Below are positions 2,326 through 35,801 of a stretch of DNA of 36,329 nucleotides, piece by piece (the stretch's first letter is position 1; the number at the start of each line of letters is the position of its first letter). Source of the DNA: a virus. Lineage: Duplodnaviria > Heunggongvirae > Uroviricota > Caudoviricetes. The stretch is taken from IMG/VR virus record IMGVR_UViG_2737471834_000007. The stretch is one strand, 5' to 3'. Made by a program: the position numbers and the translations under genes. The notes under the pieces are model-generated. The model was not told the origin of the DNA. It saw nothing but the letters and a program-made list of their open reading frames with translations, and did not search any database.

Positions 2326-4065
2326 TCAGGCGATAAGGTCGCGGTATTTTTCCCGCAGGGAGGATGACTGTCTGGCATCACCGGTAAATTCACCACTGTT
2401 GGTGGGTGTGCCTGTGCCAGGATGTGCGTGTGTGGCAGTATGTGTTGCCAGTTGTTCAATGAGATCCAGAATATCAACGAACAACGTCATCAGGTTCAGG
2501 CTGTCGCCACCCTGTGAACCATTTCGGCCTATAAACAGGGTCGGCGCAGAGAGGGAAAGACCACCACTGGCGGTGGTGGTCTGTGTACCGCTGATGTTCT
2601 CTGTGATATTCCCGCTTACTGTGCTGTTAACATTACCGCCGATGGTTTCCTGCCTGTCAGCACTGATGCGGCGTATCTCTGCCTGTAATTCCGCAATAAG
2701 GCTGTTTGCTTTCATCCTGATATCACCGGTGGCCACAATACCGTAATCACCATCAGAACCATGGACGATCTGCCCTGCCATCAGTGAACTCGTCCCGAGT
2801 ACCGTGGTACTGTCTGTGGCCTGTACGGTTGTTGTGCGGGTTGTCGTCCGGCGGCTTTCCTGGTCGCTGGTTATGATTCGGTGTGCAGATTCTTCCCTGA
2901 TTTTCTGGTCCGTTTCCCGGTGCCATGTGCCGTCACGGGTAACCCTCTGAAATACTTCTGCACGCTGTTGCTGTAGCTGCTCGCCAGGCTGGATATCAGG
3001 AAGATTCAGTCCGGATGGGAGTATCTGCCTTATTACCGGTTTATCTGGCCGTCCTTCGATATGCGCGATTTCCACTATCGTTCCGGCTTCCGGATAAGAA
3101 AAACAACCGGCCTCATTTCCGGCCATGGGTACCGGAAGCGGCACAGCAGGATATACAGGCGTGTTGTTGCTATCGTTGCCGTTTTCGTCCAGTAACTGCA
3201 GGTCAACAGCATAACGTGGGCGAAAACTGTCTGCCACATCGCCAAGCGTCGTGGATTCTGTTGGCGAGATAACGCGGGCCAGTCTTGGGCGTAATGTTCC
3301 GTCAGCCAGCTCCGGAAACTGCGATTCTGTCTGACGGCGCAGAGGTGAGCTGGATACGACAGAACCATCCTGGCGAAACCTGTCCCATGTCAGTGTCATG
3401 GTTTCATTATGAATGGCCACACGCGTGATCCGTCCTGCAGGAAGGTTAACGCCGGGGCGCAGAGTCTCTATCAACATGATATCCATACTGTTGCCGGCGC
3501 TGTGCCCCAGTGCATATTCATCAGGAATTTCCGGGATGGTCAGCGATGCAAAGCGTGAGTCACTGGCGCTGCCAACGAATACAGAACCATCCGGCATGGG
3601 ATGCCAGACGTAATCCTGAATGCTGAATATCCTGCCAAGATGATCAAGCAGGCGGGTACCGCTTCCGCTGTGAGTGACGCAGGGTACTGGTGTGGATACA
3701 TAGGCAGATGACGCGGTAATAAACACGATACCGCTCTTTTTTCCGAGATCATCAAGAACATCACGCAGAGTCGGGTGCTGGATGACACACGGAAAGCTGA
3801 AATCCAGTACCGCGGCAGCTTCCCTGATGAACAGACGGCGGGCGCCGTTTTCTGCCGGTTGATCGCGCTCAACGTAACCTGAGAAATAACGCCAGGCCTG
3901 GCCATCACGCCCAAAATCAATCTGAATCATGGCACCGGCCAGCGTGCTGCGCTGATTCGGCAGGGTGACAAAACCTCTTCCTGATGCGTTCAGTGACAGG
4001 ACCAGACTGATGTCTGTTATTTCTGTCTGTTTACCGTTTACCATGCATCTCTGAATAATTTTCAT
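2326..4065 (-). CDS. Baseplate central spike protein (gpV/VgrG-like C-terminal half with a ~330 aa N-terminal extension)
   Basis: AGTIVEIAHIEGRPDKPVIRQILPSG resembles the gpV OB-fold motif; C-terminal ATHTATHAHPGTG (H-x-H) resembles the spike apex of P2 gpV as recalled from memory. Start overlaps the upstream stop. Confidence 0.5.
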   Translation of the reverse strand: MKIIQRCMVNGKQTEITDISLVLSLNASGRGFVTLPNQRSTLAGAMIQIDFGRDGQAWRYFSGYVERDQPAENGARRLFIREAAAVLDFSFPCVIQHPTLRDVLDDLGKKSGIVFITASSAYVSTPVPCVTHSGSGTRLLDHLGRIFSIQDYVWHPMPDGSVFVGSASDSRFASLTIPEIPDEYALGHSAGNSMDIMLIETLRPGVNLPAGRITRVAIHNETMTLTWDRFRQDGSVVSSSPLRRQTESQFPELADGTLRPRLARVISPTESTTLGDVADSFRPRYAVDLQLLDENGNDSNNTPVYPAVPLPVPMAGNEAGCFSYPEAGTIVEIAHIEGRPDKPVIRQILPSGLNLPDIQPGEQLQQQRAEVFQRVTRDGTWHRETDQKIREESAHRIITSDQESRRTTTRTTTVQATDSTTVLGTSSLMAGQIVHGSDGDYGIVATGDIRMKANSLIAELQAEIRRISADRQETIGGNVNSTVSGNITENISGTQTTTASGGLSLSAPTLFIGRNGSQGGDSLNLMTLFVDILDLIEQLATHTATHAHPGTGTPTNSGEFTGDARQSSSLREKYRDLIA

Positions 4066-4637
4066 TATTCACCATCCTTCACGCTGCCAACACCTGTTTT
4101 ATCCAGCCATCCTCCCAGCGTATTATTCACCGCTCCCCAGAATGCGTCCTGAGTATTGATTTGTTCGTTGTCAGACGTTGAACTGGTTCCTGTCTGTGTC
4201 TGCTGGTTAACCCTGGTTTTCTGTTCGCTGCTGCGGGCCTCTTTTTTCTCAGGTACGCTGAGTTTTTCCCTCAGGGTAAATGAGACCTGCCAGTTCATTT
4301 TCCCCTGTTGCTCCGTGACGTCGACACTGCCGGAGAAAACACCCTGTCGCATATTCACCGCTCTGGCAGTAGCGTTGGCAATCCTGTAGCATTTTTTATC
4401 TCCTCCATTGCCCGTGGCTTCGGCCAGTTGAAAAAGGCGGGTCAGTATTTTTTCATCGTTGAAATCAACAATGCCCGTAACCTTCATTTCTTTCGCTTTG
4501 CAGCCTTTCTGGGCGCTGCTGGTACTGGTTGACTGACCTGACATATCCTTATCCGGCAGGCGCAGACTGACGCTGACAGTGATATTGCGTAACAGGATCG
4601 CTTCTCCGTCCAGCGCCAGCACGATGATTTGTGTCAT
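4065..4637 (-). CDS. Hypothetical tail/baseplate-associated protein (190 aa)
   Basis: Translationally coupled to both neighbours (4-nt and 1-nt overlaps); Ser/Thr/Gln-rich C-terminal half; no motif recognised. Confidence 0.45.
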   Translation of the reverse strand: MTQIIVLALDGEAILLRNITVSVSLRLPDKDMSGQSTSTSSAQKGCKAKEMKVTGIVDFNDEKILTRLFQLAEATGNGGDKKCYRIANATARAVNMRQGVFSGSVDVTEQQGKMNWQVSFTLREKLSVPEKKEARSSEQKTRVNQQTQTGTSSTSDNEQINTQDAFWGAVNNTLGGWLDKTGVGSVKDGE

Positions 4638-5392
4638 TTCAGGGCACCTCTCAGCGCGGATAAATCCTCACCTGCAAAGAGCATAATAGTGGTCAGCACC
4701 CGGTCAGGGTGAGGAATGTTTTTTTTCATCATGATTGCGGCCTGCCTGGTATCACCGGAAAAACAGAAACTCCATACCGGGCATGCCCTGTTTTGCGAGT
4801 CCTGCTTTTCTCCGGTTAATCTGTCCATCAGGTTCTGGCGATCTTTTCTGAACTGTGCCAGCGCCTGATCCAGCCCGGAAAAGGACAGCGGAGGAGGGGA
4901 AACGGCTGTGCTGATCAGTTCAGTCTGTGCCAGACTCCTGGCTGTGCTGAGTGACAGGGTGGTGCTTTCCGGAAGTGTTGCCGCTACTTTTGCCGGGATC
5001 TGCATTTTGCTGACGGCCAGCGATAACTGGCTGGCGATCAGCCTGTTCATTCGCTTGATTTCCGGCAAAGGGAATACGTCGGCAAAACGTTTTGTCAGTG
5101 CAAGAAATTCTGAAGCTGAAGTGGCACTGAGCATCATTAGTACCATGTCGCAATCCCGGCTGCCCTCCAGTCTGTGCAGAATGGCATCAATGGCATTTTC
5201 CGGGCTGAGGTAAGCCCCTGAACGGGTGACGTTTCCCACACCTTCCGACCATGGATGGAGACAAAGTTGTGAGCAGTTGATATTCATTGCAGCAGGCTTA
5301 AGAAGACTGCTTTTCCATTCCGCTGGCTGCATATTCATACCATTTATTTCTGATGTGTTGTTGTTTTTTGATGTAATACACAAATTTAACAA
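4634..5392 (-). CDS. Hypothetical protein (up to 252 aa; true start uncertain, candidates at 5338, 5332 and 5287)
   Basis: Track ORF starts at TTG 5392; no candidate start has a clear SD. Stop overlaps the next gene start (ATGA). Confidence 0.4.
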   Translation of the reverse strand: MLNLCITSKNNNTSEINGMNMQPAEWKSSLLKPAAMNINCSQLCLHPWSEGVGNVTRSGAYLSPENAIDAILHRLEGSRDCDMVLMMLSATSASEFLALTKRFADVFPLPEIKRMNRLIASQLSLAVSKMQIPAKVAATLPESTTLSLSTARSLAQTELISTAVSPPPLSFSGLDQALAQFRKDRQNLMDRLTGEKQDSQNRACPVWSFCFSGDTRQAAIMMKKNIPHPDRVLTTIMLFAGEDLSALRGALK

Positions 5393-5494: not shown

Positions 5495-5526
5495 CTGCCA
5501 TACATTTGTATGGCAGGCTTTTTTTC
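5495..5526 (+). terminator. Strong hairpin plus T-run oriented for the + strand, in an AT-rich gap inside the - strand tail operon
   Basis: CTGCCATAC-ATTT-GTATGGCAG followed by GCTTTTTTT on the + strand. Confidence 0.4.
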
Positions 5527-5905
5527 AGCAACAGGTTCCCTGCTGCGTGTCGCTGTATTTCCCTTTCCCGAACAACCTTACTGCAAGATACATTAACCGT
5601 CTGCGCCAGCGGGGAACTCCCAGCACCGTCATCGCATCCAGAAATATCCTGTCCGCTTCCGCCTTCGTGCGCAGGGCATTGTCATACAGCCAGTCATGAA
5701 TAATCGCGGCTTTCGCATAACGACCATGCGGCGGGAGCAGTGCCCACAGAAGCCGGGGCACACTGGCAAGGTCCGTCACATATCCCTCCGGAACATAAAT
5801 CACATCATCCGGGTTATCCGTCAGCCAGAATTCAAACGGCTCAACCAGACGCCAGCGGTAATCATCCAGCATCTCCAGAATGGCCGGTGTGGTGAACTTA
5901 CTCAT
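5525..5905 (-). CDS. DUF1353-like phage protein (about 126 aa from the internal Met)
   Basis: GYVTDLASVPR and IHDWLYD motifs resemble the DUF1353 family; the start overlaps the end of the upstream chaperone gene. Confidence 0.5.
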   Translation of the reverse strand: MSKFTTPAILEMLDDYRWRLVEPFEFWLTDNPDDVIYVPEGYVTDLASVPRLLWALLPPHGRYAKAAIIHDWLYDNALRTKAEADRIFLDAMTVLGVPRWRRRLMYLAVRLFGKGKYSDTQQGTCC

Positions 5906-6508
5906 CATCCCCCTCCGGCCAGCCAACAGGATACGCACGAATATCCGGCAGTGCGGTCAACCCTGCCACTTCTTCTTTCATCCGGCGCTGGCGTTCATGG
6001 ATTTTAAACCCCTGCATCACCATCGCCGCATTCATCGCAGTATCCAGTTGTATCAGCTCTTCCGGCGTCAGAGTGACATCCTGATTATCCGCATCCGTCC
6101 AGAAAAAATGCTCAGGCAACAGCCCGTTTCCTGCCACCGCAACTACCGGTGTCAGTCTGGACTGTGAAGCCTTTCCGGCATCCCAGCGATGACCACTGAA
6201 TTCAAAAACAAAACTGCTGTTCTCCTGGCTGTCACGCCAGCGACTGATTTCACCGTATTTCTGATTTCTGGCCTTTTCCAGTATCTCCTCTGTCACCACA
6301 AACGGCGTGACCTCACCCCAGGCCCCTGATATCAGCCCTGACCAGAGCCTTAACCCGAATTCTGTCGGGTCTGAAGCTCTGGCAGTATAAGGTACATATA
6401 CCCGCTGACTGTCATCAGAACGGTCTGCCATGAACACCTCACAGGTAATGCTGCCGTCTTCATTAAAACGGGCATTGCGCACGTCCGCTTCTGAATTCCT
6501 GGTATCCA

Positions 6509-6509
<1 letters not shown>
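5898..6509 (-). CDS. Putative tail fibre assembly/chaperone protein for fibre 2 (203 aa)
   Basis: Immediately follows fibre gene 2 with a 1-nt TAATG overlap; position and size fit a fibre chaperone; ends in GWPEGDDE. Confidence 0.45.
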
Positions 6510-8077
<1,568 letters not shown>

Positions 8078-8096: not shown

Positions 8097-8624
8097 TTAT
8101 TTTGTTTCCGGTACAGCAGGCCAGTTAATTGCCTCAAAGTTATCCTTATTATCAATGTCTGAAATATTCAGAGAATTAAGCTCACGGATATACATCATCC
8201 ACTGAGTGAGTTTAAGCCTGTCATCGTCACTGATTATTCCAAGACTGAGCTCTGTCTGCCAGTCACTGGTAATACTCCTGGCTTCTGACAGTAACCTGTT
8301 GCGTTGTGTTTCAGCCTGTTGCCGGTAATCAACAGGAACCGGTAATATCTCACCATCCCTGTAATACCAGCGAGCTTCAATACAGAACCCTTCAGGAAGT
8401 TCGTCAACCTCCACAATGGAGAAACCTGCCGGATAGAGTCGTGAAGCATCCTCCGCCATGGAGTAAATCACTCCGGTGTCCGGATGAATGCACAATTTAT
8501 ATTTCTTCGTGAATTTATTGACAGAATCATAAAAATCCTGACCATCTTCACTGCAGAAATACTGGATACCCTCACCATAAGGCATGTTTTCAGGGTAATA
8601 GCGTGAAACGTTTCGGAGTTCCAT
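8097..8624 (-). CDS. Tail fibre assembly protein for fibre 1 (about 175 aa from MELRNV)
   Basis: C-terminal LTQWMMYIRELNSLN...INWP resembles the conserved Tfa/gpG tail; AAGGGA SD 7 nt upstream of the ATG at 8624, which lies just past the fibre 1 stop. Confidence 0.65.
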   Translation of the reverse strand: MELRNVSRYYPENMPYGEGIQYFCSEDGQDFYDSVNKFTKKYKLCIHPDTGVIYSMAEDASRLYPAGFSIVEVDELPEGFCIEARWYYRDGEILPVPVDYRQQAETQRNRLLSEARSITSDWQTELSLGIISDDDRLKLTQWMMYIRELNSLNISDIDNKDNFEAINWPAVPETK

Positions 8625-8635
8625 AATGTTGTCCC

Positions 8636-20989: not shown

Positions 20990-20999
20990 CGTTTTATCC

Positions 21000-24878: not shown

Positions 24879-24943
24879 TGTGCTGTACAGGACGAGAGCG
24901 GTTAAAATCACCACGACCGAAGCAATCTGTCGGGAGGTGGAAC

Positions 24944-25201
24944 ATGCGCAGACAAAAGGCACGGTGTCATTGCTGTGGTTCGGTGGCCATTATTGAAAAA
25001 ACCGTATGGAAAACGGACCATTTTGCTGATGTATATTACCGCTGTACCCGGCTTGACTGTGGACATACCTGGGTGATGAATCTGACCTATTCTCATACGC
25101 TTGTCCCAAGCGGTCTGGATAACGGTGTACTGAAATTACTGATAGAACGTATGCGCCCGGAAGAAAAGCAGATGGCGCTGGAATTGCTGCAGGCTGGATG
25201 A
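24944..25201 (+). CDS. Ogr/Delta-family zinc-finger late transcription activator (85 aa)
   Basis: C-x2-C ... C-x4-C arrangement (CHCCGS ... CTRLDCGH); GGGAGGTGG SD before the ATG at 24944. Confidence 0.6.
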   Translation: MRRQKARCHCCGSVAIIEKTVWKTDHFADVYYRCTRLDCGHTWVMNLTYSHTLVPSGLDNGVLKLLIERMRPEEKQMALELLQAG

Positions 25202-25824: not shown

Positions 25825-26252
25825 TGTGGTGTTCTCCGGTGTTGTGTCGGCCTGGCGAATGAATTGCGTTGTGGTGAAAAGACCATTCCCGCCAGCGCGG
25901 CCTTGCGATTGACGACATTCAGTGTTCTGGCCAGCGCTGCGTTGTGTTTGTGTGCCTGTTCTTCGTGGTACTTCTGCATGATTTTCCCTGCAGGTGTGCA
26001 CGGCTCCGACTCCTCCGGCGAACGGCGGGTACGAACTGAGACAATCCAGCTCTTATGTTCATTTCCCGGCCGTCTGTTGAGTATATCTGTAATGGTGGTT
26101 TTCGTGGTGCGGTCAGGATTGACCACTGTGATTTCCAGTTCATCGCCGGGTTGTGGTCTCGTGGCAATGTTGTTCAGAGTCAGTAATGGCGTGCGCTGGC
26201 GCATCATGTTGTCAAAGCGCTGGCGCTGCATGGTGCAGTAAAAACGGGTCAT
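25821..26252 (-). CDS. Hypothetical protein (143 aa) translationally coupled to the replication gene
   Basis: ATGA overlap with the gpA-like stop at 26249-26252. Confidence 0.5.
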   Translation of the reverse strand: MTRFYCTMQRQRFDNMMRQRTPLLTLNNIATRPQPGDELEITVVNPDRTTKTTITDILNRRPGNEHKSWIVSVRTRRSPEESEPCTPAGKIMQKYHEEQAHKHNAALARTLNVVNRKAALAGMVFSPQRNSFARPTQHRRTPQ

Positions 26253-28786: not shown

Positions 28787-29196
28787 TCCCCGGCAGTTGC
28801 CCGTTGAAACGCGGCACGGTACAGCACAAGAAGGCGCCGGTATTCGTCAATAAAGCCTTCTGCCGTTTTAATTCCTTTCACTGCCACGCTGTGGGTTGTC
28901 ATGTCCAGTACGAGCGCCATTTCTGACGATGACCAGCTGATAACGCTGCTGTCGAGTCCGTTGATGTGGAACAGGCCCAGATTCAGGCTGTGATTCAGGT
29001 CTCTGACGTCAACACGGTAACGGTCATCAACGGTGAAGGAGAAATCACCGGATGTGGCGGCGCTGCTGGCTGCCTGTTTACAGGCGAGGCGGTAATAGTC
29101 GTGCAGATCATTGAGACGGGAAGCGAGGCGTGGATCCACCGCCCACATCCAGTTAAAAAAATCCTGAATATCTGAAAGTCCCTTAACGTTCTTCAT
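28783..29196 (-). CDS. Hypothetical early protein (137 aa)
   Basis: CGGAGG SD; ATGA overlap with the replication gene start. Confidence 0.5.
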   Translation of the reverse strand: MKNVKGLSDIQDFFNWMWAVDPRLASRLNDLHDYYRLACKQAASSAATSGDFSFTVDDRYRVDVRDLNHSLNLGLFHINGLDSSVISWSSSEMALVLDMTTHSVAVKGIKTAEGFIDEYRRLLVLYRAAFQRATAGE

Positions 29197-29264
29197 GTGA
29201 ACCTCCGGTAACAGACGTGCGGAAGCCTCCCGCGCACGGGTGCGGGATGGCTTCAGGATATTGA

Positions 29265-29492
29265 TTAGTGGTGGTATTGCTGGCTGATGAGGTCCTGCAG
29301 CTCCGCGAGATCATCCGCCAGGTAGCTGAAGACTGCCGCGTAATACCCGGCAGCGATACCGCCGTTAAGCCGATGTAATACGTTTGACTGCATGATGAAG
29401 GCGACAGATGCAGCCCGATGGAGTCTGCGGTTGATTTCGGTGCGGATGTGAAGGCGCTCAGCGCGGGCGCGCTGTTGTTTGCGGTTTGCCAT
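29265..29492 (-). CDS. Hypothetical small basic protein (75 aa)
   Basis: GAAGAGG SD upstream of the ATG; Arg-rich N-terminus. Confidence 0.45.
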   Translation of the reverse strand: MANRKQQRARAERLHIRTEINRRLHRAASVAFIMQSNVLHRLNGGIAAGYYAAVFSYLADDLAELQDLISQQYHH

Positions 29493-29780
29493 GGTATGGC
29501 CTCTTCGTTTGTAAGTTTGGGAAACTCACCATCCAGAGGTTCCAAGCTCGGGGTGGCGAGACGTACGGGGTTGGAACTACCGGAAAACGAAGAAACCGGC
29601 CCGACCAGAGTCGGCCCCGTACGCCCCGCCATAATTTGGGTGCGAAAACGGCGTGGCGATACGGTACGCACAAAAAAACCGCTGGCGCGGCTGTGCGCTT
29701 CGTTTGTCGGCGGGGTTCCAATCCCGGCACCCGTTTTATGAGGTGCAGCGGGAATGTAACCCGACAGATTGCGGCATGGC

Positions 29781-29840
29781 AAGCGGTTTTTTTGTGTGTG
29801 CATGATGATCACTCAGTCCGGTAACAGTTCACGGAGCACG
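29781..29840. repeat. Direct repeat copy A (~57-60 bp) at the 3' end of the methyltransferase gene
   Basis: About 85% identical to 30876-30932 by hand alignment (AAGCGGTTTTT..GTGTGTGCATG...ACTCAGTCCGGTA.CAGTTC). Confidence 0.6.
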
Positions 29841-30828
29841 GCGTCAGCTGTTGTTCTGTGGTGTAAGAGGTAAACATCGCGCTGTAAGTTGTATCTCCCG
29901 TCACCGTGCCGCAGTCCGGACAGTAGCCGCCGCCATGGCGACCACAGGCGGCGCACTGTCTCAGGGTGGCGATAACCTCCGGTGCTGGTTTTCGGGTTTT
30001 TGCGCCAACGCTTCGAGGTGCCTGGATGCGGTTCATCCGGTAGCCCTGATAAATGCGCCGGGTTTCCGGTGTGTCGGAGCCGGAAATGGTTATGCTGGTC
30101 ATTCCACCTGTTTCCTGTGAAAGACGGTCAAGCGCTGCTCTCAGGCGAACGTGTTCGTCCTTCGTGAAGGGGTTTTCGTAGGCGGTGAAATTGTCCCGGC
30201 CACTGAATGGCAGGTAAGGGGGATCGCAGTACACGCAAAGCGTACTACCTATGCTGAACAGGTGACTGGCAGTGTTCAGCGTTTTCTGAAAATCGCCATG
30301 AACAAGCAGTGTTCTGGTGCTGTTTGCCTTGTCTGCAAATGCGCGGATTTCCCGTTCAGGGAAGTAGGGAGCCCGGTAGCCACCGAATGGGACATTAAAA
30401 TCCCCTTTTTCATTCACCCGGTACAGGCCATTAAAGCAGTGCCTGTTGAGGTATAAAAACATGGCGGCCAGCCGTAATTCGCGACGGTCGCTTATTCCCG
30501 TGCTCAGGAATGCATGATTCTCTGCATTAAAGGTGTTACGGATAGCGAGATAGTCAGTCCTGTTGTTGTGCTCCAGGAACAGGCCTTTTGCTTCGTTGAT
30601 CAGACTGTCGGTGTTGTCCCGTGCTGCCCGACAGAAATTAATCAGCGCACCATTGGAATCACCCGGGATGTAGCGGCTGTAACTGGTGTTCATGAATACC
30701 GATGCGCCACCCACGAACGGCTCAACCAGGCAGTCAGCTTCTGGCAGGTGCGCCTTCAGTGTGTTCATGATGCGGCTTTTCCCGCCCACCCATTTCAGCG
30801 GTGTGCCGGATAACAGTTCTTTGCTCAT
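29809..30828 (-). CDS. Dam-family N6-adenine DNA methyltransferase (339 aa), orphan
   Basis: AdoMet-binding motif (EPFVGGASVF) N-terminal and catalytic DPPY C-terminal (alpha-class order); Cys-rich C-terminal tail; no restriction endonuclease partner seen. Confidence 0.8.
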   Translation of the reverse strand: MSKELLSGTPLKWVGGKSRIMNTLKAHLPEADCLVEPFVGGASVFMNTSYSRYIPGDSNGALINFCRAARDNTDSLINEAKGLFLEHNNRTDYLAIRNTFNAENHAFLSTGISDRRELRLAAMFLYLNRHCFNGLYRVNEKGDFNVPFGGYRAPYFPEREIRAFADKANSTRTLLVHGDFQKTLNTASHLFSIGSTLCVYCDPPYLPFSGRDNFTAYENPFTKDEHVRLRAALDRLSQETGGMTSITISGSDTPETRRIYQGYRMNRIQAPRSVGAKTRKPAPEVIATLRQCAACGRHGGGYCPDCGTVTGDTTYSAMFTSYTTEQQLTPCSVNCYRTE

Positions 30829-30896
30829 AACGCGGCCTCTTTGTTACAGGTTTCGTGTGCCAACAAATCCCATGAAAGCGGTTTTTGTGTGTGCAT
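30825..30896 (-). CDS. Candidate upstream leader ORF (23 codons) coupled to the methyltransferase start
   Basis: ATG at 30896; its TGA overlaps the methyltransferase ATG (ATGA); lies inside repeat copy B. Confidence 0.25.
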   Translation of the reverse strand: MHTQKPLSWDLLAHETCNKEAAL

Positions 30897-30932
30897 GGCG
30901 ATTACTCAGTCCGGTAGCAGTTCGTACAGCAC
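30876..30932. repeat. Direct repeat copy B, spanning the 3' end of the HTH gene and the methyltransferase leader
   Basis: See copy A. Confidence 0.6.
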
Positions 30933-31460
30933 AATGTCGTCGACAGTGCGGCGGCGACTGTAAAGAAAATATGCTGTGTTAGTGGTCGCTTTTATTTGCA
31001 GTGTGTGATTGATGTGTTTTGCTATCGCGGCGAATGTCATACACTGTTCATCACGTAGTTCTGTTACCAGTTCCACCAGGCGATCGCTGTATCTGGTCAG
31101 GTGGTGCAGATCTCCGCATTTCTGCAGTCTGTAACCACGTTTACTCAGGTGTTCCTGTACTGTGCGACGGGTACATCCCACCATGACTGCCATTTCCTGC
31201 GCTGTTCTGGTGTGACGGTTTCTGATGAGAAAATTGATTTCTTCTCTGCTCAGCGTTTTTCTCTTGCGACCAATTAATCCACGATCACGTAAAACACGAA
31301 TTCTGTGCATAACTGCGCTGCGGGTGCGTTGAATTCGTTCAGCCATCTGGTATGTGCTGTTTTCCTGATAAAGCGAGGTAAGCATCTCGTCTTCCTGCCG
31401 TGTCCATGGTTTCACGTGCGCAGGGGCTTTGCCTGGTATCCCCATTGGTTGAAGTATCAT
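30906..31460 (-). CDS. Putative DNA-binding protein with helix-turn-helix-like segments (184 aa)
   Basis: ACGGAGGT SD; basic segments of HTH character (STYQMAERIQRTRSAVMHRIRVL; RTAQEMAVMVGCTRRTVQEHL). Confidence 0.5.
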   Translation of the reverse strand: MILQPMGIPGKAPAHVKPWTRQEDEMLTSLYQENSTYQMAERIQRTRSAVMHRIRVLRDRGLIGRKRKTLSREEINFLIRNRHTRTAQEMAVMVGCTRRTVQEHLSKRGYRLQKCGDLHHLTRYSDRLVELVTELRDEQCMTFAAIAKHINHTLQIKATTNTAYFLYSRRRTVDDIVLYELLPD

Positions 31461-31486
31461 CGTGATAACCTCCGTGCCTGTGCCGG

Positions 31487-31699
31487 TTATTCGGTCGGGT
31501 TCAGGGTGTAATCAATGGCGTTTTCAATACGGCGTTTAAGCTCGCGGTGGATCTCACCCGGTGTTACTGGTGCGCCAGGACCGCTCAGCGTTGCCGTGAA
31601 GTCGTCGATTTCCTCCATCAGCAGATTGCGGAGTACAGCGATGTGGTGGCGTACATCTTTTCCTGGTTTGCGTGCGTTGGTGGTGTACTTGCTGATCAT
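31487..31699 (-). CDS. Hypothetical small protein (70 aa from MISKY)
   Basis: ATG at 31699 overlaps the upstream stop (ATGA). Confidence 0.4.
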   Translation of the reverse strand: MISKYTTNARKPGKDVRHHIAVLRNLLMEEIDDFTATLSGPGAPVTPGEIHRELKRRIENAIDYTLNPTE

Positions 31700-31947
31700 G
31701 GTTGCAGTTCTCCATAGCCGTGCCTTTCTGATTTCCATGCTCCCCGGATGGTCATCACTTCGCGTACGGTATTTGCGACTGCCGTGATTTGTGTGCTGTC
31801 AGTCAGATGAATGTAGAGATAATCAGCGTCTGACGGGCACGGCGTGGTTGTTGTGATCAAATAACTTTCCACCATGAATTCGCGGCCCACGGCATCGGTG
31901 AAATGCGTCAGCATGGTTCGCCTTGTGGCAGTGAATATGTTGTTCAT
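31696..31947 (-). CDS. Hypothetical small protein (83 aa)
   Basis: AAAGGGG SD 8 nt upstream of the ATG. Confidence 0.45.
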   Translation of the reverse strand: MNNIFTATRRTMLTHFTDAVGREFMVESYLITTTTPCPSDADYLYIHLTDSTQITAVANTVREVMTIRGAWKSERHGYGELQP

Positions 31948-31959
31948 CGTCCCGCCCCT

Positions 31960-32238
31960 TTATGCTGAAAAGCGACCTGACTGTGCCCGGAGTTCTGCCA
32001 GTTCGCGCTCAAGGCGGAGGGTTTTCGCATGGAGTGCGCCGATGATGTTGTTTGCTGACGTCATGAGCATGTTTTCTATTTGCACCGTCTGGCTGACAAA
32101 AAATGATGGGCTGTTATCGTCGTCCATTTCCGATAGCAATTTCTTTCTTGCATTAATCAGTTCTGCCAGCGCTTTTTGTGTGGCTGTGATAACTTCCTTG
32201 CTGGTGAACATTTCGCTGATTTTTTCATTGCTGCACAT
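31960..32238 (-). CDS. Hypothetical coiled-coil protein (92 aa)
   Basis: GGAG SD; helix-prone C-terminus. Confidence 0.45.
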   Translation of the reverse strand: MCSNEKISEMFTSKEVITATQKALAELINARKKLLSEMDDDNSPSFFVSQTVQIENMLMTSANNIIGALHAKTLRLERELAELRAQSGRFSA

Positions 32239-32319
32239 TGTTCTTTCTCCGTTTTAAAGGTGAGTGAATCTCTCCGCTGTTGCGGATTGTTTGCTGGTTT
32301 TCCTGTTTAATCTGGCGTT

Positions 32320-32445
32320 TTATTTACGGCGTTTTTCGCCAGTAAATAATGATTCGATATCTTTTACGGAATCAACAATTCTTACGATGCCAATCGCGCA
32401 GAGCACGGAAATAATAAGAATCAGCCATGAGATAAATATATTCAT
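32320..32445 (-). CDS. Hidden small membrane peptide (about 41 aa), below the ORF-track size cutoff
   Basis: MNIFISWLILIISVLCAIGIVRIVDSVKDIESLFTGEKRRK: one transmembrane segment and a basic C-terminus; ATG overlaps the upstream stop (ATGA). Confidence 0.4.
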   Translation of the reverse strand: MNIFISWLILIISVLCAIGIVRIVDSVKDIESLFTGEKRRK

Positions 32446-32687
32446 GCTGCCACCTGTGAATAATAAGGTTCGATAATGTCAGAACCGTTAAACAGTTCTG
32501 CCACAATGCTTTTTAATTCTTCCTGTGCTTCTTTGTCGTCGCTGGCAAAGGCGTGAATAAACAGTCCATAGATAGCCTGTTCCATTAATTCGCGTGCGGT
32601 TACGTCTTCCTTCACTCCCAGCTCTGCCAGGCGGAAGTGATAACGTTCCAGTGCATGGTTCACCAGTGTTTTATAGGCTTCGTTCAT
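32442..32687 (-). CDS. Hypothetical small acidic protein (81 aa)
   Basis: GGAGGA SD 8 nt upstream of the ATG. Confidence 0.5.
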   Translation of the reverse strand: MNEAYKTLVNHALERYHFRLAELGVKEDVTARELMEQAIYGLFIHAFASDDKEAQEELKSIVAELFNGSDIIEPYYSQVAA

Positions 32688-32706
32688 GGTCTGAATCCTC
32701 CGTTTA

Positions 32707-33186
32707 TCACCTGCGATATTGAGGATGCTGAAAACTACGACCGCTGATTAATCGGTCTGCTGTTCTTAATGCTTCGTGCAATGTGAAATCCTGTCCGAAC
32801 TGATCATCACCGCGAGTCAGGTAATAACAGGTGTTTCCGGTAATCGGGTTGCGTGCGCCTCTGTGTATGACAATTCCGGCATCATTAATCAGCCAGGTGT
32901 GTTTACCTGTTTGTTTAACCAGATACCCGTCAGGTGTGGCGTGTGTTTCCTGCAGGCTGTAGCGTTTTGTGCTGGCAGCACTGGTGGAGAAACGGTTAGC
33001 GTGGCGTTCTGCATTGCTGCGGAAGCGCTGCTGTGAAGAATTGTGCTGTTGCTTCATACAAAAATATCCCGCTGTTGTTGCGAATTTGTGCCGGGTTTTA
33101 GCCATGCCCGGCGCATGGTTTTGTGGTATTTTTCCACCGCCTGCAGTCTTGAAGGGGCTGTGAATGGCGCGTGTTTTACTAACCAC
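32707..33186 (-). CDS. Hypothetical protein (start uncertain; candidates at GTG 33186, ATG 33105 and ATG 33057)
   Basis: Open frame only; no candidate start has a clear SD. Confidence 0.35.
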   Translation of the reverse strand: MVSKTRAIHSPFKTAGGGKIPQNHAPGMAKTRHKFATTAGYFCMKQQHNSSQQRFRSNAERHANRFSTSAASTKRYSLQETHATPDGYLVKQTGKHTWLINDAGIVIHRGARNPITGNTCYYLTRGDDQFGQDFTLHEALRTADRLISGRSFQHPQYRR

Positions 33187-33199
33187 AAAGGAATAAAAT

Positions 33200-33382
33200 A
33201 TGTCCTATGATGAAAAGGTTATTGATGCGCTAAATGCGGCAATTTCTGTATTAGAGAAAGCGCCGGTTAATCCTCCGAATAAAGGAGAACCATCAAATAC
33301 CATTCGTAAGCTTATGCGCGAAGTGCGTAAACTCACGCTAAAAAAATATCCTCAGGCAAGCAAATATATTTTTCCTGATTAA
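33200..33382 (+). CDS. Small + strand protein (60 aa) convergent with the early operon
   Basis: AAGGAA SD 6 nt upstream of the ATG; its stop overlaps the stop of the convergent 135-aa gene (TTAA). Confidence 0.4.
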   Translation: MSYDEKVIDALNAAISVLEKAPVNPPNKGEPSNTIRKLMREVRKLTLKKYPQASKYIFPD

Positions 33383-33786
33383 TTAACTTCTGTGCCGGAG
33401 ATTTTCTCTGGCACATTTCCGACCTCAATAACCATGTTGTCATTACTTAAAATTTGCCGATAAAGTTCAAAGGCTTCTTCTGCAGGGAAACGGAGCATGA
33501 CACCGCATGCAGGTTCTAAAATCATTCCAATAGTTCCTTTAGCATCGTCACGACAAAAATGGCCGTATTCATCGTCAGGATGCAGGATGACATCTTTCAA
33601 ATCTTCGCCATTCTGAAGCTTTGATTTTAATGCCATCAGACCAGCGAACGTTCTGTGTAATTCGTGGTAGTCAACGCTGATTTCAATCTGCGGTTTTCCC
33701 GGGAAAACCAGCAAAAGCTTCTGGTGTGGTTTTTCGTTTTTCAGATTTTCCAGTTGTTCCAGTAGTACTTCATCTTCGTGATTCAT
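33379..33786 (-). CDS. Hypothetical early protein (135 aa)
   Basis: AAAAGAGG SD upstream of the ATG; acidic; first gene after the Cox-like gene. Confidence 0.5.
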   Translation of the reverse strand: MNHEDEVLLEQLENLKNEKPHQKLLLVFPGKPQIEISVDYHELHRTFAGLMALKSKLQNGEDLKDVILHPDDEYGHFCRDDAKGTIGMILEPACGVMLRFPAEEAFELYRQILSNDNMVIEVGNVPEKISGTEVN

Positions 33787-33890
33787 TCTACTGTTACCTC
33801 TTTTAACTCATTCAGGCAGTGTGATATAGCCCACTAACTGCCCGTGTTTGAAATAACGGCGACGAAAATAATGTGTTAACAATAAAGCAA

Positions 33891-34250
33891 TCATGCGGCC
33901 CTCGCTTTTTTAGTTCTGCTTCGTTCGCTATGTGTTGGCTTAAATAAAAACAGACGGTTTTCCCAGTCGTGCCATTCTTGTGGAGCATTTTCGATCAAGC
34001 GATCACATGCTTCATCCCACGCTTTTCTGTTGATGTAGAGTTCAGCGTTTCCGCCTGGTTTGAGAGGGTCTGCCATATACACGGCTGGCAATTTCCCTGC
34101 TTTAGCCATGCTCACAATGGCGTTAACTGTTTTGCCGATATACATCGCAAACCCTTCTTTTGACAGGAGATGCGAGGGATTTTCTGAAAGTCGAATTTCT
34201 TCACGTTCACGTGCTTTGCGTCCTGTTTTTTGATACTCCCCCTCTGGCAT
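33891..34250 (-). CDS. Cox/Apl-like excisionase/transcriptional regulator (start uncertain: 34250, 34145 or GTG 34355)
   Basis: YIGKTVNAIVSMAKAGKLPAVYMADP resembles P2 Cox (LIGKSTGAVRRMIDKGKLPVIDMTDP) as recalled from memory; divergent from the C repressor gene. Confidence 0.55.
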   Translation of the reverse strand: MPEGEYQKTGRKAREREEIRLSENPSHLLSKEGFAMYIGKTVNAIVSMAKAGKLPAVYMADPLKPGGNAELYINRKAWDEACDRLIENAPQEWHDWENRLFLFKPTHSERSRTKKARAA

Positions 34251-34430
34251 TTCTGACAGGTGATCGCATCGTGTTCCGCAAAGTGACTCAGGCGCGTTTT
34301 GAGTGCTTTCTTGCATCTGATATCCTCCGCCATTGGTGCTCTTTCTAATTGGCACTAGTTGGAACCACTTAGAACATTTGTTTGCTGTTAATATGTGGTG
34401 TTAATCTACACATATGTAGGAGTTTGTCAA
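34251..34430. promoter_or_regulatory. Lysis-lysogeny switch region between the cox-like and C genes, with candidate operator repeats
   Basis: Inverted repeat ATATGTG-N11-CACATAT (34391-34415) and repeated GTTAAT elements just upstream of the C start. Confidence 0.45.
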
Positions 34431-34724
34431 ATGGACATTCCGCAAAAAATTCGCGTCATGCGCAAATCTGAAGATCTCACTCAGCGGGAATTCGCTGATA
34501 TGATTGGAATTTCTTATTCTGCTCTGACCAGTTATGAGTATGGTCGTAACCTTCCTGGCCTTGAGATCACTATCAAGCTTTTCAAGCACCCGAGATTTTC
34601 TAAATACCGCGACTGGTTTTTGTTCGATGAGGTCGAACCAAAGGCCGGGCAGGTGGTACCGGCTCTCGCACACATTGGGCAAAGCGAAGCGGAATCGTCC
34701 CGCTCCGGCAAGAAGACTGGCTAA
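34431..34724 (+). CDS. C: Immunity repressor, P2 C-like (97 aa from the ATG at 34431)
   Basis: C-terminal PALAHIGQSEAESSRSGKKTG matches P2 C (PALAHFGQ...SGQKTG) as recalled from memory; HTH segment near the N-terminus; AGGAG SD. Confidence 0.7.
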   Translation: MDIPQKIRVMRKSEDLTQREFADMIGISYSALTSYEYGRNLPGLEITIKLFKHPRFSKYRDWFLFDEVEPKAGQVVPALAHIGQSEAESSRSGKKTG

Positions 34725-34790
34725 CGGTCCATCTGGCCTTTATTTCTCAAAATTGTGATCAAGATGATGTTTTCATTGGGGGGCTTCCTT

Positions 34791-35801
34791 ATGTCGATTA
34801 AGAAGCTCGCTGATGGCAAATACTGTGTGGACGTGCGGCCTGCTGGATCTGAAGGAAGAAGATTTCGGCGGCGATTTCCTACCCGTGGTGAAGCGGCGAT
34901 GTATGAACGCCATGTTCTGACGCATTATCACGATAAGGACTGGGTAGAAAAACCCATTGAACGTAAAGCGTTAAGCGATCTTCTGGAACTGTGGTGGGTG
35001 TACCACGGTAAGAATCATCGTTATGGCGCGATGAATCGGGTCAGAATTGAAGCGGTTCTTCGTGATATGCGAGAGCTTGGTATTAACAGAAGTGACCATT
35101 TAACCCGAAAAAATATTATCAGATATCGCCTTGAATTAATGAATCGTGGAATTAAGCAGTCAACGGTAAATCGTTATTGCGCAATGATGAGCGGTTTCTT
35201 TGAAAAGCTGATTGATGTTGAAGAGTTTGTGGGTGATAACCCATTTCACGAGATACGCAAGCTAACAATTAATCAGCCTGAAATGGCTTATCTTGCACAT
35301 GATGATATTCCCAGGCTAACCGCGCTTTTATCTGGCGATAATCTTAAGGCTGTATTGTTAAGCCTGGCCACTGGCGGTCGTTGGGGTGAAGTTGCCAATA
35401 TTAAAGGTGAACACATAATTGGTGGGAAGGTTATTTTCATGGAGACAAAGAATGGATCTAGGCGGGTTATTCCTATAGCTAAAGATCTTGAATCTCTGAT
35501 TAAAGTAAAGGCGACGGGAAGATTAATAAAACCCAGTTATGCAACTGTCAGGAGTGCGATAAGGAGTGTTCGACCTGATTTGCCAGTCGGTCAGTCTGTG
35601 CATGTTTTACGACACACATTTGCAACTCATTTTATGATTAATGGGGGGAATATTATTACCCTGCAGCGTATTTTAGGACATAGCACAATCCAGCAAACAA
35701 TGACCTATGCGCACTTTGCACCTGATTATCTCCAGGATGCGGTAAGGTTCAATCCTGTCGCGGAGTTGTCCAGATATTGTCCACAAATAGGGACTAAATA
35801 G
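34791..35801 (+). CDS. int: Tyrosine integrase, P2 Int-like (336 aa from the ATG at 34791; track ORF starts at GTG 34755)
   Basis: MSIKKLADGKYCVDVRP matches the P2 Int N-terminus (MAIKKLDDGRYEVDIRP) as recalled from memory; catalytic HVLRHTFATHFMINGG and LGHSTIQQTMTYAHFAPDYLQDA motifs. Confidence 0.85.
   Translation: MSIKKLADGKYCVDVRPAGSEGRRFRRRFPTRGEAAMYERHVLTHYHDKDWVEKPIERKALSDLLELWWVYHGKNHRYGAMNRVRIEAVLRDMRELGINRSDHLTRKNIIRYRLELMNRGIKQSTVNRYCAMMSGFFEKLIDVEEFVGDNPFHEIRKLTINQPEMAYLAHDDIPRLTALLSGDNLKAVLLSLATGGRWGEVANIKGEHIIGGKVIFMETKNGSRRVIPIAKDLESLIKVKATGRLIKPSYATVRSAIRSVRPDLPVGQSVHVLRHTFATHFMINGGNIITLQRILGHSTIQQTMTYAHFAPDYLQDAVRFNPVAELSRYCPQIGTK

What the first reader, a model, noticed from the sequence alone, without database searches (positions are those of the whole stretch)
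2326..35801. Mosaic genome: P2-type head, replication and immunity modules joined to a non-P2 tail gene order
Int, C, Cox-like, gpA-like, portal, terminase, scaffold, capsid, small terminase and gpL-like genes follow P2 order. The ogr-like gene is relocated next to the portal gene, and the tail runs sheath-tube-lysis-chaperone-tape measure-baseplate-fibres-spike without P2-like U and D genes after the tape measure gene. This suggests module exchange between myovirus lineages.
Basis: partly seen in the sequence, partly recalled or inferred. Interest (0 to 1): 0.45.

Follow-up and report, generated by a model that had tools for sequence, protein, structure and literature searches.

The report
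HP1-type P2-family prophage of E. coli
This is an apparently intact prophage of the well-known P2 phage family whose "unusual" tail gene order is simply the standard layout of the HP1 branch of that family, so the finding is ordinary rather than a new hybrid.

Summary
The gene calls and gene order are real. Pfam confirms Int, C, Cox, gpA, Ogr, portal, terminase, scaffold, capsid, gpM and gpL. After gpL come R, S, sheath, tube, holin, endolysin, chaperone, tape measure, baseplate, fibres and spike. This is not a new P2 × non-P2 hybrid. The whole late region is collinear, gene for gene, with Haemophilus phage HP1 (sequenced 1996) and with Cronobacter ESSI-2, Escherichia ev239, Salmonella SI7 and Aeromonas phiO18P. 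These also carry the ogr-like gene beside the portal gene. Head and tail proteins are equally distant from those phages (about 46-50% and 45-47% identity). The head genes are much further from P2 (31%), so head and tail were inherited together. Real mosaicism lies at the early/late boundary. The int-C-cox-A region resembles phage P88, which has a P2-order tail (int 81%, Cox 90%). Nilsson et al. described this pattern for E. coli prophages in 2011. Copies 99% identical occur in at least six public assemblies. The element sits at the ytfP terminator beside chpS. In passing I found a P4-satellite-like isrK-C4-epsilon cassette in the early operon and a conserved dyad between the divergent late operons.

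The parts
728..1746 (-). Prophage cargo between cos and the left attachment site: a YafO-family toxin (728-1108) and an adjacent 212-aa partner ORF (1108-1746)
   Evidence: NCBIfam gives a YafO hit that is weak and below the curated cut-off. The same gene pair sits at the same place in the E7-1N7 and MB06234 prophages, where PGAP names it a YafO family toxin.
2143..2179 (.). Candidate cos region, a conserved non-coding block downstream of the spike gene
   Evidence: The block is conserved in E7-1N7 and MB06234. It aligns with the joined termini of the linear ESSI-2 and ev239 genomes. Having cos on the att side rather than beside the portal gene is an HP1-group trait (PMC2771037). Inferred, not shown.
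2326..4065 (-). HP1 orf35-like central hub-spike protein (579 aa), VgrG-like
   Evidence: PHROG 2258 'baseplate protein', E 5e-213. The family profile hits the T4 gp5 beta-helix (E 1.8e-8, residues 354-506) and VgrG OB-fold and helix regions in the PDB. Identity is 35-46% to the orf35 proteins of HP1, phiO18P, ESSI-2, ev239 and SI7 over full length.
4065..5392 (-). HP1 ORF34-type baseplate complex protein (4065-4637) and orf33-like protein (4634-5392)
   Evidence: Pfam HP1_ORF34, E 2.4e-57. PHROG 1398 and PHROG 1677. Same order as HP1 orf33-orf34-orf35.
5525..8077 (-). Extra, second receptor-binding set: a fibre with collagen repeats (6509-8077), a DUF4376 protein (5898-6509) and a DUF1353 protein (5525-5938)
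   Evidence: Pfam and PHROGs. Absent from HP1, ESSI-2, ev239 and SI7. Present but partly decayed in E7-1N7 and MB06234.
8097..10189 (-). Primary tail fibre (8636-10189) and tail fibre assembly protein (8097-8657)
   Evidence: Pfam Phage_tail_fib, Phage_fiber_2 and Caudo_TAP.
10195..12363 (-). Baseplate wedge: gpI-like (10195-10821), gpJ/Baseplate_J (10818-12002), DUF2590 (11995-12363)
   Evidence: Pfam. Identity is 47-62% to HP1-group phages.
12335..14984 (-). Tape measure protein (12335-14506), DUF6890 ORF (14509-14658, presumed frameshift extension) and tail assembly chaperone (14700-14984)
   Evidence: Pfam PhageMin_Tail and Phage_TAC_10. The ORF is listed. DUF6890 is called at the same position in near-identical contigs.
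15078..15828 (-). Lysis cassette embedded in the tail operon: holin (15538-15828) and M15 endolysin (15078-15419). A 13-14 bp hairpin follows at 15017-15050.
   Evidence: Pfam Phage_holin_3_2 and Peptidase_M15_4. Hairpin. HP1 has hol-lys at the same position.
15832..17477 (-). HP1-type tail tube (15832-16287) and sheath (16284-17477)
   Evidence: Pfam Phage_HP1_Orf24, E 2e-48, and DUF2586, E 1e-127. PHROG 'tail sheath'. Best matches among deposited phage genomes are 54-56% identical (ev239, ESSI-2).
17461..19146 (-). Tail completion proteins gpS (17461-18201) and gpR (18180-18671), and head completion protein gpL (18664-19146)
   Evidence: Pfam Phage_tail_S, P2_Phage_GpR and Phage_GPL.
19243..21938 (-). 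Head operon: small terminase gpM, capsid gpN, scaffold gpO
   Evidence: Pfam Phage_term_smal, Phage_cap_P2 and Phage_GPO.
21958..21981 (.). Perfect dyad TTCGGATA-N8-TATCCGAA in the divergent gpO/gpP promoter region. Candidate binding site for the Ogr-like late activator.
   Evidence: It is the only match in the window. Related dyads sit in the same spacer of three E. coli prophages, ev239, ESSI-2, SI7 and HP1. Function is inferred.
21914..25201 (+). Large terminase gpP, portal gpQ and Ogr/Delta-type zinc-finger late activator (ORF 24878-25201; likely start 24944)
   Evidence: Pfam Terminase_6N/6C/5, Phage_portal and Ogr_Delta. An ogr-like gene lies beside the portal gene in ESSI-2, ev239, SI7, phiO18P and the E. 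coli prophages.
25333..29196 (-). End of the early operon: 137-aa ORF (28783-29196), replication endonuclease gpA (26249-28786), 143-aa ORF (25821-26252), Ead/Ea22-like protein (25333-26001)
   Evidence: Pfam Phage_GPA, E 1.6e-104, and Ead_Ea22. gpA is 51% identical to P88, 72% to E7-1N7 and 32% to P2.
29265..29746 (-). P4-satellite-like cassette: isrK RNA (29672-29746), C4/CI-type antisense RNA (29549-29636), epsilon-like 'derepression' protein (29265-29492)
   Evidence: Rfam gathering-level hits of 68 and 83 bits. Pfam Derepression. The protein is 31% identical to P4 epsilon. P4 has the same order. C4 is complementary to isrK and to the stretch just downstream of C4.
29809..34355 (-). Front of the early operon: Cox (33891-34355), small ORFs including DUF4761, an HTH protein (30906-31460) and a Dam-type methylase (29809-30828)
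   Evidence: Pfam Phage_Cox, DUF4761, HTH_11 and MethyltransfD12. A promoter-like TTGACA-16-TAGATT lies at 34430-34403.
34395..35801 (+). P2-type lysogeny operon: short C repressor (34395-34724) and tyrosine integrase (34755-35801)
   Evidence: Pfam HTH_3, and Int_N plus Phage_integrase. C is 72% and Int 81% identical to P88; both are 44% identical to P2.
35878..35891 (.). Right attachment-site core GCCACCTTCGGGTG, inside the ytfP terminator hairpin. The host gene chpS follows from about 36078.
   Evidence: The same 14-mer lies at the left junction of the E7-1N7 prophage, just after ytfP. The terminator-like hairpin is at 35876-35895. The flank matches most E. coli genomes. The left attachment site is not in the window.

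Best explanation
The window holds an apparently intact temperate myovirus prophage of the family Peduoviridae (the P2 family), belonging to its HP1-type branch. It is integrated in Escherichia coli at the ytfP terminator next to chpS.

Late region (inferred from homology). All late genes are of HP1 type and in HP1 order:
- The divergent operons Q-P-ogr and O-N-M-L build and fill a P2-family capsid.
- The long O operon continues into tail completion proteins R and S, then a DUF2586 sheath and an HP1-Orf24 tube.
- A holin/endolysin cassette is embedded next.
- Then come the chaperone and tape measure, the wedge (DUF2590, J, I) and two fibre sets.
- Last come orf33, orf34 and a VgrG-like fused hub-spike. 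The spike takes the place of P2 gpD and gpV.
- An Ogr/Delta zinc-finger protein encoded beside the portal gene presumably activates the late promoters. A conserved CGGATA-N8-TATCCG dyad lies between O and P.

Early region. It has a different ancestry:
- It is a P2-type int-C|cox switch plus a gpA rolling-circle replicase.
- Its closest phage relative is P88, a phage with a P2-order tail.

Origin of the mosaic. The only recombination visible in this genome is between the early and late halves. This pattern is already documented for P2-family prophages. Head and tail were inherited together.
For: Gene order:
- It is identical, gene for gene, to HP1, ESSI-2, ev239, phiO18P and SI7. The collinear tblastn hits are listed.
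- Pfam names two of the tail proteins after HP1 (Phage_HP1_Orf24 and HP1_ORF34).

Divergence of head and tail:
- Head identity: 46.4% to ESSI-2, 50.2% to ev239, 46.4% to SI7, 42.4% to HP1.
- Tail identity: 47.1% to ESSI-2, 46.9% to ev239, 45.3% to SI7, 43.3% to HP1.
- Head identity to P2 and 186 is only 31%.

Early region:
- All 9 early proteins tested hit P88, with mean identity 61.5%, against 2-3 of 9 hits in HP1-type phages.
- Nucleotide identity to P88 is 73-77% in the early region only.

Distribution in E. coli:
- E. coli prophages with the same architecture occur at the same site (E7-1N7, JNEC-KY202) and at another site (MB06234).
- Which relative is closest differs between the early and late regions.
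- Copies 98.8-99.4% identical over 21 kb occur in six draft assemblies. The identical capsid protein is listed in 27 index blocks of the collection, and 24 contigs carrying it were read.

Other points:
- The spike matches T4 gp5 and VgrG.
- The att core is shared with E7-1N7.
- Lavigne 2009 (PMC2771037) defines HP1-like viruses by exactly this pattern: capsid genes in P2 order, tail genes unrelated to those of P2.
- Nilsson 2011 (PMC3448106) reports E. coli and Yersinia prophages with a P2-type int-C-cox region and late genes in the 'HP1 cluster'. That paper infers recombination between the regulatory and late regions.
Against: - No isolated phage is closer than about 56% protein identity in the late region. 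Viability of this lineage is therefore inferred from intact ORFs and from conserved copies, not shown.
- No Rz/Rz1 spanin gene was found after the endolysin, although HP1, ESSI-2, ev239 and SI7 have one.
- The left attachment site lies outside the window, so completeness of the element cannot be verified here.
- cos and the late-activator site are assigned by conservation only.
- I built no phylogenetic trees. The co-inheritance argument rests on similar mean identities.
Confidence: 0.9

Rival explanations
1. One reading: this particular genome is a recent hybrid in which a P2-type head, replication and immunity backbone acquired a tail module from a different myovirus lineage (Mu-like or other).
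For: Tail proteins have no detectable similarity to P2 or 186 tail proteins, while the six head proteins do. The order sheath-tube-chaperone-TMP-baseplate superficially recalls Mu.
Against: Head proteins are 46-50% identical to ESSI-2, ev239 and SI7 but only 31% to P2, and they diverge from those phages to the same extent as the tail proteins. The head-tail junction L-R-S-sheath is conserved in HP1, phiO18P, ESSI-2, ev239 and SI7. Mu shares only fibre and Tfa domains.
Confidence: 0.03
2. Deep-history version: the HP1-type late region as a whole arose long ago, when an ancestral P2-family head module was joined to a tail module of another contractile-tail lineage. The window merely inherits this ancient chimera.
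For: Within Peduoviridae the six capsid genes are shared by both branches. Sheath, tube, hub and spike are not recognisably similar between the branches, even with small profile-profile comparisons. PMC2771037 says the same.
Against: gpR, gpS, Baseplate_J, gpI and fibre domains are shared Pfam families in both branches. Divergence plus rearrangement of a common tail is therefore equally possible. Nothing here identifies a donor lineage. In any case this would be a property of the whole HP1 group, not of this window.
Confidence: 0.3
3. The element is a defective or domesticated prophage (for example a tailocin-like remnant or a lysis-impaired cryptic phage), not a functional virus.
For: No spanin gene was detected. 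Relatives show decay in the second fibre set, with pseudogenes in E7-1N7 and MB06234. No isolate of this lineage is present in the phage collection.
Against: All 40-odd expected genes are open and full length, including int, cox, A, terminase, portal and capsid. Near-identical complete copies occur in several unrelated assemblies. Head genes are present, which argues against a tailocin.
Confidence: 0.1

Closest known systems
Haemophilus phage HP1 (Hpunavirus, Peduoviridae; NC_001697)
   Same: The late gene order is identical from portal to orf35, including the lysis genes placed between tube and chaperone, and orf33-34-35 at the end. It has a gpA-type replicase. cos is on the att side.
   Different: Protein identity is only 26-58%. 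HP1 has a 186-type CI/CII switch, not P2-type C. It has one fibre set and a spanin. Its ogr-like gene next to Q is unannotated and looks frameshifted in the record.
Cronobacter phage ESSI-2 (Seongnamvirus), Escherichia phage ESSI2_ev239 (Evevirus), Salmonella phage SI7 (Irrigatiovirus)
   Same: These are the closest deposited phage genomes for the late region, with head identity 46-50% and tail identity 45-47%. The order is the same. All have an ogr-like regulator directly after the portal gene and an M15 endolysin 78-83% identical.
   Different: Their early regions differ: ESSI-2 has CI/CII and ev239 has a primase-type replicase. They lack the second fibre set and the isrK-C4-epsilon cassette genes found here. 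They are far below the roughly 70% nucleotide identity that, to my knowledge, is used to delimit phage genera.
Escherichia phage P88 (Xuanwuvirus)
   Same: The early region matches: Int 81%, Cox 90%, C 72%, gpA 51%, the derepression protein 67%, and the isrK and C4 RNAs. Nucleotide identity there is 73-77%.
   Different: P88 has the canonical P2 late layout (V W J I H G ... FI FII E T U D), with ogr absent from the portal side. Its late proteins are at most 36% identical to those here, or undetectable.
E. coli and Yersinia prophages PhiECO4, PhiECO6, PhiYPS and PhiYE98 of Nilsson et al. 2011 (PMC3448106); RefSeq prophages in E. coli E7-1N7, JNEC-KY202 and MB06234
   Same: They combine a P2-type int-C-cox switch with late genes of the HP1 cluster. 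E7-1N7 and JNEC-KY202 are integrated at the same ytfP/chpS site. E7-1N7 is fully syntenic, with 40 of 42 proteins matched.
   Different: Nucleotide identity to the complete-genome prophages is only 70-88%, and the closest relative differs between the early and late halves. I could not compare directly with PhiECO4 and PhiECO6 because their sequences are not held here.
Enterobacteria phage P2 and phage 186
   Same: They share the family-level core: Q P | O N M L, gpR, gpS, J, I, gpA, Ogr, and in P2 the int-C-cox switch.
   Different: Sheath, tube, tape-measure chaperone, U, D, V, W and X have no detectable counterparts by sequence. The tail operon structure differs, as do the ogr and cos positions.
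Satellite phage P4 immunity/derepression region
   Same: isrK (seqA region), C4 (CI RNA) and an epsilon-like protein occur in the same order and orientation. The C4 RNA is complementary to sequences on both sides of it.
   Different: Here the cassette sits inside the early operon of a full-size helper-type phage, upstream of gpA rather than of the P4 alpha primase. Apart from the family-level Ogr/Delta zinc finger, no other P4 gene is present.

Membership tests
HP1-type Peduoviridae ('HP1-like viruses' of Lavigne 2009) | P2-family capsid gene block in the order Q P | O N M L | tested here: met
   All six Pfam families are above cut-off. The block is collinear with HP1.
HP1-type Peduoviridae ('HP1-like viruses' of Lavigne 2009) | HP1-type tail genes (DUF2586 sheath, HP1 Orf24 tube, DUF2590, HP1 ORF34, orf35 spike) in HP1 order, unrelated in sequence to the P2 tail genes | tested here: met
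   Shown. No tail protein has a hit covering at least half its length in P2 or 186 (0 of 12); the figure is 11-12 of 12 in HP1-group phages.
HP1-type Peduoviridae ('HP1-like viruses' of Lavigne 2009) | [quoted passage not shown] | tested here: inconclusive
   A conserved block at 2143-2179 aligns with the joined termini of ESSI-2 and ev239. No virion DNA ends are available.
HP1-type Peduoviridae ('HP1-like viruses' of Lavigne 2009) | Contractile-tailed virion with a head of about 60 nm | not testable with these tools
   Requires induction and electron microscopy.
P2-like sensu stricto (Peduovirus/Eganvirus layout) | Tail operons V-W-J-I-H-G and FI-FII-E-T-U-D, with ogr at the end of the F operon next to att | tested here: not met
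   The order differs, there are no FI, FII, U, D, V, W or X homologues, and ogr lies beside the portal gene.
P2-type regulatory region (Nilsson 2011) | Adjacent int, a short C repressor, and a divergently transcribed cox | tested here: met
   Shown by Pfam Phage_Cox and HTH_3, a C repressor of about 100 aa, and Int. Identity to P2 is 36-44% and to P88 72-90%.
Mu-like phages | Transposase A/B replication module and Mu-type head and tail genes | tested here: not met
   Only the fibre and Tfa proteins hit Mu, 2 of 42 in total.
P4-type RNA immunity (seqA-CI-seqC with epsilon) | isrK-like and C4-like RNAs upstream of an epsilon homologue, with the CI RNA complementary to flanking sequences | tested here: met
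   Rfam scores are 68 and 83 bits against gathering scores of 50 and 45. Identity to P4 epsilon is 31%. Complementary blocks are 29566-29592 with 29698-29726 and with 29532-29550.
P4-type RNA immunity (seqA-CI-seqC with epsilon) | CI RNA causes premature termination of the operon and confers immunity | not testable with these tools
   Needs transcript mapping and genetics.

The most novel reading that the evidence does not exclude
The early operon of this helper-type phage carries the RNA immunity switch of the satellite P4 (IsrK/seqA, C4/CI RNA and a seqC-like target). The same is true of P88 and several E. coli prophages. The switch sits in front of an epsilon-like antirepressor and the replication gene A. 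If functional, it would be a second, RNA-based checkpoint on prophage derepression and replication. It could also let helper and satellite sense or block each other through a shared immunity RNA. The 2021 survey of P4-like elements (PMC8628076) states that delta/ogr is the only P4-specific gene with clear homologues in P2-like phages. This cassette may therefore be under-appreciated. Separately, the conserved CGGATA-N8-TATCCG dyad may be the hitherto undefined late-activator site of HP1-type phages.
Probability: 0.3. Interest if true: 0.45.

Novelty: new member of a known kind. Interest (0 to 1): 0.1.

Why it matters
It matters little for the question asked. The 'non-P2' tail order is the textbook layout of the HP1 branch of the P2 family, and early/late reshuffling in this family has been described.

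The practical value is in annotation. Prophages of this kind are common in E. coli. About a quarter of complete genomes match the 24-kb query that holds the late region, although some of those matches may rest on fibre segments alone. These prophages should be labelled HP1-type peduoviruses, not hybrids.

The side observations could be worth a small follow-up for people studying helper-satellite conflict and late gene control. They are a P4-like RNA immunity and epsilon cassette inside a helper-type phage, a conserved late-promoter dyad, and the apparent lack of a spanin.

Tried and rejected
- **First identity table.** It was wrong because the locus files hold several records each. I redid it per record and cite only that.
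- **P2-type Ogr site.** I looked for TGT-N12-ACA in the O/P spacer and found none there. The 14 occurrences elsewhere do not sit at operon starts.
- **Left attachment site.** I looked for it as a direct repeat of the right-end sequence within 1-2400. There was no repeat of 11 nt or more. The att core was instead found by comparison with E7-1N7.
- **Remote homology to P2 and Mu tail proteins.** I ran profile-profile comparisons with hhalign on alignments of only 1-8 sequences. HP1-type orf33, orf34, orf35, DUF2590, sheath and tube were compared with P2/186/P88/Mu U, D, V, W, X, FI, FII and Mu N. Nothing was significant. The best result was orf35 against gpD at E 0.02.
- **PDB profile searches.** Those for orf34 and orf33 gave nothing.
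- **LexA box near the derepression cassette.** I found no convincing site.
- **Spanin search.** I looked among ORFs of at least 20 aa in 14480-15560 and found no obvious lipoprotein or Rz pair.
- **Expensive searches not run.** I did not run the large protein-database searches or structure prediction, because the verdict does not depend on them.

Full report
**What is in the window**

Six-frame ORF listing and translation give one gene-dense block. It runs from about 700 to 35.8 kb. The gene order is: (minus strand) tail, then head; (plus strand) terminase, portal, ogr; (minus strand) the early operon; (plus strand) C and int.

- Integrase, an HTH_3 repressor of about 100 aa, Phage_Cox, Phage_GPA and Ogr_Delta.
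- Phage_portal, Terminase_6N/6C/5, Phage_GPO, Phage_cap_P2, Phage_term_smal and Phage_GPL.

After gpL the genes are: P2_Phage_GpR, Phage_tail_S, DUF2586 (PHROG 'tail sheath'), Phage_HP1_Orf24, a holin, an M15 endolysin, Phage_TAC_10, a tape measure, DUF2590, Baseplate_J, Tail_P2_I, a tail-collar fibre and Caudo_TAP. Then comes a second fibre with collagen repeats plus DUF4376 and DUF1353 proteins. Last are an orf33-like protein, HP1_ORF34 and a 579-aa protein.

There are no tRNA genes.

**What the 'non-P2 tail order' is**

Two of the tail proteins match Pfam families named after Haemophilus phage HP1. The annotated HP1 genome reads Q P | O N M orf20(L) orf21(R) orf22(S) orf23(sheath) orf24(tube) hol lys orf25 orf26 orf27(TMP) orf28 orf29(J) orf30(I) orf31(fibre) orf32 orf33 orf34 orf35. 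That is the window's order gene for gene, including the lysis genes lodged between tube and chaperone and the three genes at the end.

The same order is found in:
- Cronobacter phage ESSI-2
- Escherichia phage ESSI2_ev239
- Aeromonas phage phiO18P
- Salmonella phage SI7

All are classified in Peduoviridae. A tblastn of 42 window proteins against each genome gives collinear hits.

The 'relocated' ogr gene is also part of this layout. ESSI-2, ev239, SI7 and phiO18P each have a small regulator directly after the portal gene that matches the window's Ogr-like protein (40-51% identity). PGAP calls the equivalent gene 'Ogr/Delta-like zinc finger protein' in three E. coli prophages.

**Were head and tail joined recently?**

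They were not. Mean identities over proteins with at least 50% coverage:

| Reference | Head (Q, P, O, N, M, L) | Tail (12 proteins) |
|---|---|---|
| ESSI-2 | 46.4% | 47.1% |
| ev239 | 50.2% | 46.9% |
| SI7 | 46.4% | 45.3% |
| phiO18P | 45.6% | 42.7% |
| HP1 | 42.4% | 43.3% |
| P2 | 31.5% | 0 of 12 matched |
| 186 | 31.3% | 0 of 12 matched |
| Mu | none | none |

Mu shares only fibre and fibre-assembly domains. The head is thus not 'P2-type' in the narrow sense. It is HP1-type, and it has diverged from the HP1-group phages to the same degree as the tail. That is what co-inheritance predicts.

Lavigne et al. 2009 (PMC2771037) define the HP1-like group in these terms. The six capsid genes are in P2 order, the tail genes are generally without similarity to those of P2, and cos lies next to attP.

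**Where the genome really is mosaic**

The early region has another ancestry:
- Megablast against phages finds only Escherichia phage P88 and relatives, and only for 26.7-35.9 kb.
- At protein level Int is 81%, Cox 90%, C 72% and gpA 51% identical to P88, and several small early ORFs match as well (9 of 9, mean 61.5%).
- P88 has the canonical P2 late layout, and its late proteins barely match the window's.

A 1-kb-bin blastn map shows the same pattern among E. coli prophages:
- JNEC-KY202 is the closest in the early region (86-94%) but distant in the late region.
- E7-1N7 (76%) and MB06234 (72%) are closest in the late region.

Nilsson et al. 2011 (PMC3448106) already reported E. coli and Yersinia prophages (PhiECO4, PhiECO6, PhiYPS, PhiYE98) with a P2-type int-C-cox region and late genes in the 'HP1 cluster'. 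However, it is placed at the wrong junction, and the true junction is already known.

**The missing U and D genes**

- Shallow profile-profile comparisons found no significant link between HP1-type tail proteins and P2 U, D, V, W, X, FI or FII.
- A profile of eight orf35 homologues matches the T4 gp5 spike beta-helix in the PDB (E 1.8e-8, residues 354-506). It also matches VgrG proteins over the OB-fold and helix (E 2e-5 to 0.03, residues about 291-496).
- Pfam gives weak hits to Phage_base_V and Gp5_trimer_C in the same places.

The 579-aa protein is best read as a VgrG-like fused hub and spike. That would cover the roles of gpD and gpV; the spike part is supported and the hub part is inferred. 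The orf33 and orf34 families have no solved relatives.

**Host, site and abundance**

- The right flank encodes ChpS and matches most E. coli genomes.
- The att core GCCACCTTCGGGTG (35878-35891) lies in the ytfP terminator hairpin. It recurs at the left junction of the E7-1N7 prophage just after ytfP.
- The left junction is not in the window. By synteny it lies a few hundred bases beyond position 1.
- Between the spike gene and the left end are a conserved block (2143-2179) and a YafO-type toxin pair. The block aligns with the joined termini of ESSI-2 and ev239 and is a plausible cos. The toxin pair is supported.
- The identical capsid protein is listed in 27 index blocks of the collection, and 24 contigs carrying it were read. 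Six loci fetched are 98.8-99.4% identical to the window over 21 kb.
- 1345 of 5426 complete E. coli genomes match the 24-kb query holding the late region. Some of these matches may rest on fibre segments alone.

**Side observations**

*P4-like cassette.* Rfam finds an isrK RNA (29672-29746) and a C4 antisense RNA (29549-29636) at gathering level. They lie upstream of a 75-aa 'Derepression' protein that is 31% identical to P4 epsilon.
- P4 has the same isrK-C4-epsilon order, as do P88, E7-1N7 and JNEC-KY202.
- The C4 segment 29566-29592 is complementary to 29698-29726 in isrK and to 29532-29550 just downstream. This is the seqA-seqB-seqC logic of P4 immunity, as summarised in PMC3632133.
- A promoter-like site precedes isrK.
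- The 209-aa ORF 29183-29812 overlying these RNAs is therefore spurious.

*Late-promoter dyad.* The O/P spacer holds a perfect dyad, TTCGGATA-N8-TATCCGAA (21958-21981). Close variants occur in the same spacer of all HP1-type genomes examined except phiO18P, including HP1 itself. P2's TGT-N12-ACA is absent there.

*Other points.*
- HP1 has an unannotated, apparently frameshifted ogr-like sequence after its portal gene.
- No spanin gene follows the endolysin. A strong hairpin sits there instead.

**Verdict**

The element is an apparently intact HP1-type peduovirus prophage with a P88-like (P2-type) early region. It is a new, uncharacterised member of a known kind, and its architecture has been described since 1996 and 2009-2011. 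Interest is low.

Noticed in passing
window 29265-29746 (minus strand); also L001 5028-5512, L002 43003-43481, L012 23331-23815, P4 L019 7888-8692: An isrK RNA, a C4/CI-type antisense RNA and an epsilon-like 'derepression' protein lie in the same order as in satellite phage P4. The cassette is embedded in the early operon upstream of gpA. The C4 RNA is complementary to sequences on both sides of it (seqA/seqC-like). The 209-aa ORF 29183-29812 overlying the RNAs is spurious.
   Followed up: partly
window 21958-21981; same spacer in L002, L011, L012, L003, L004, L006, L010: There is a perfect dyad, TTCGGATA-N8-TATCCGAA, between the divergent gpO and gpP genes. Close variants are conserved in all HP1-type genomes examined except phiO18P, from E. 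coli prophages to Haemophilus HP1. It is a candidate late-activator site and is distinct from P2's TGT-N12-ACA.
   Followed up: partly
L003 (HP1, NC_001697) 10417-10709, minus strand: An unannotated Ogr/Delta-like zinc-finger sequence lies immediately after the HP1 portal gene. It is split over two reading frames (CTVC... in one, ...CACKNPLCGHRF in another), so the gene looks frameshifted in the HP1c1 record.
   Followed up: no
window 14984-15540: No Rz/Rz1-type spanin gene follows the M15 endolysin, although HP1, ESSI-2, ev239, SI7 and the JNEC-KY202 prophage have a gene there. Instead a 13-14 bp GC-rich hairpin (15017-15050) separates the endolysin from the tail chaperone gene. A 119-bp gap separates the holin from the endolysin.
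   Followed up: partly
window 5525-8077: A second receptor-binding module is inserted between the fibre-assembly gene and orf33. It comprises a tail-collar fibre with about 60 residues of collagen-like repeats, a DUF4376 protein and a DUF1353 protein. It is absent from HP1, ESSI-2, ev239 and SI7, and is partly pseudogenised in E7-1N7 and MB06234.
   Followed up: partly
window 1-2325: Cargo lies between the presumed cos and the left end: a YafO-family toxin (728-1108) with a 212-aa upstream partner (1108-1746). PGAP misnames that partner 'SufA' in relatives. E7-1N7 additionally has hok/gef, yidD-like and DUF4177 genes further left. The left attachment site lies outside the window.
   Followed up: partly
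window 29809-30828: A Dam-type (D12 class) adenine methylase is inserted in the early operon. It is absent from P88 and E7-1N7 and is 43-48% identical to the methylases of ESSI-2 and SI7. This is another small mosaic patch.
   Followed up: no
window 35876-35895: The integration core coincides with the rho-independent terminator hairpin of host gene ytfP. Integration regenerates the hairpin at the right junction.
   Followed up: partly
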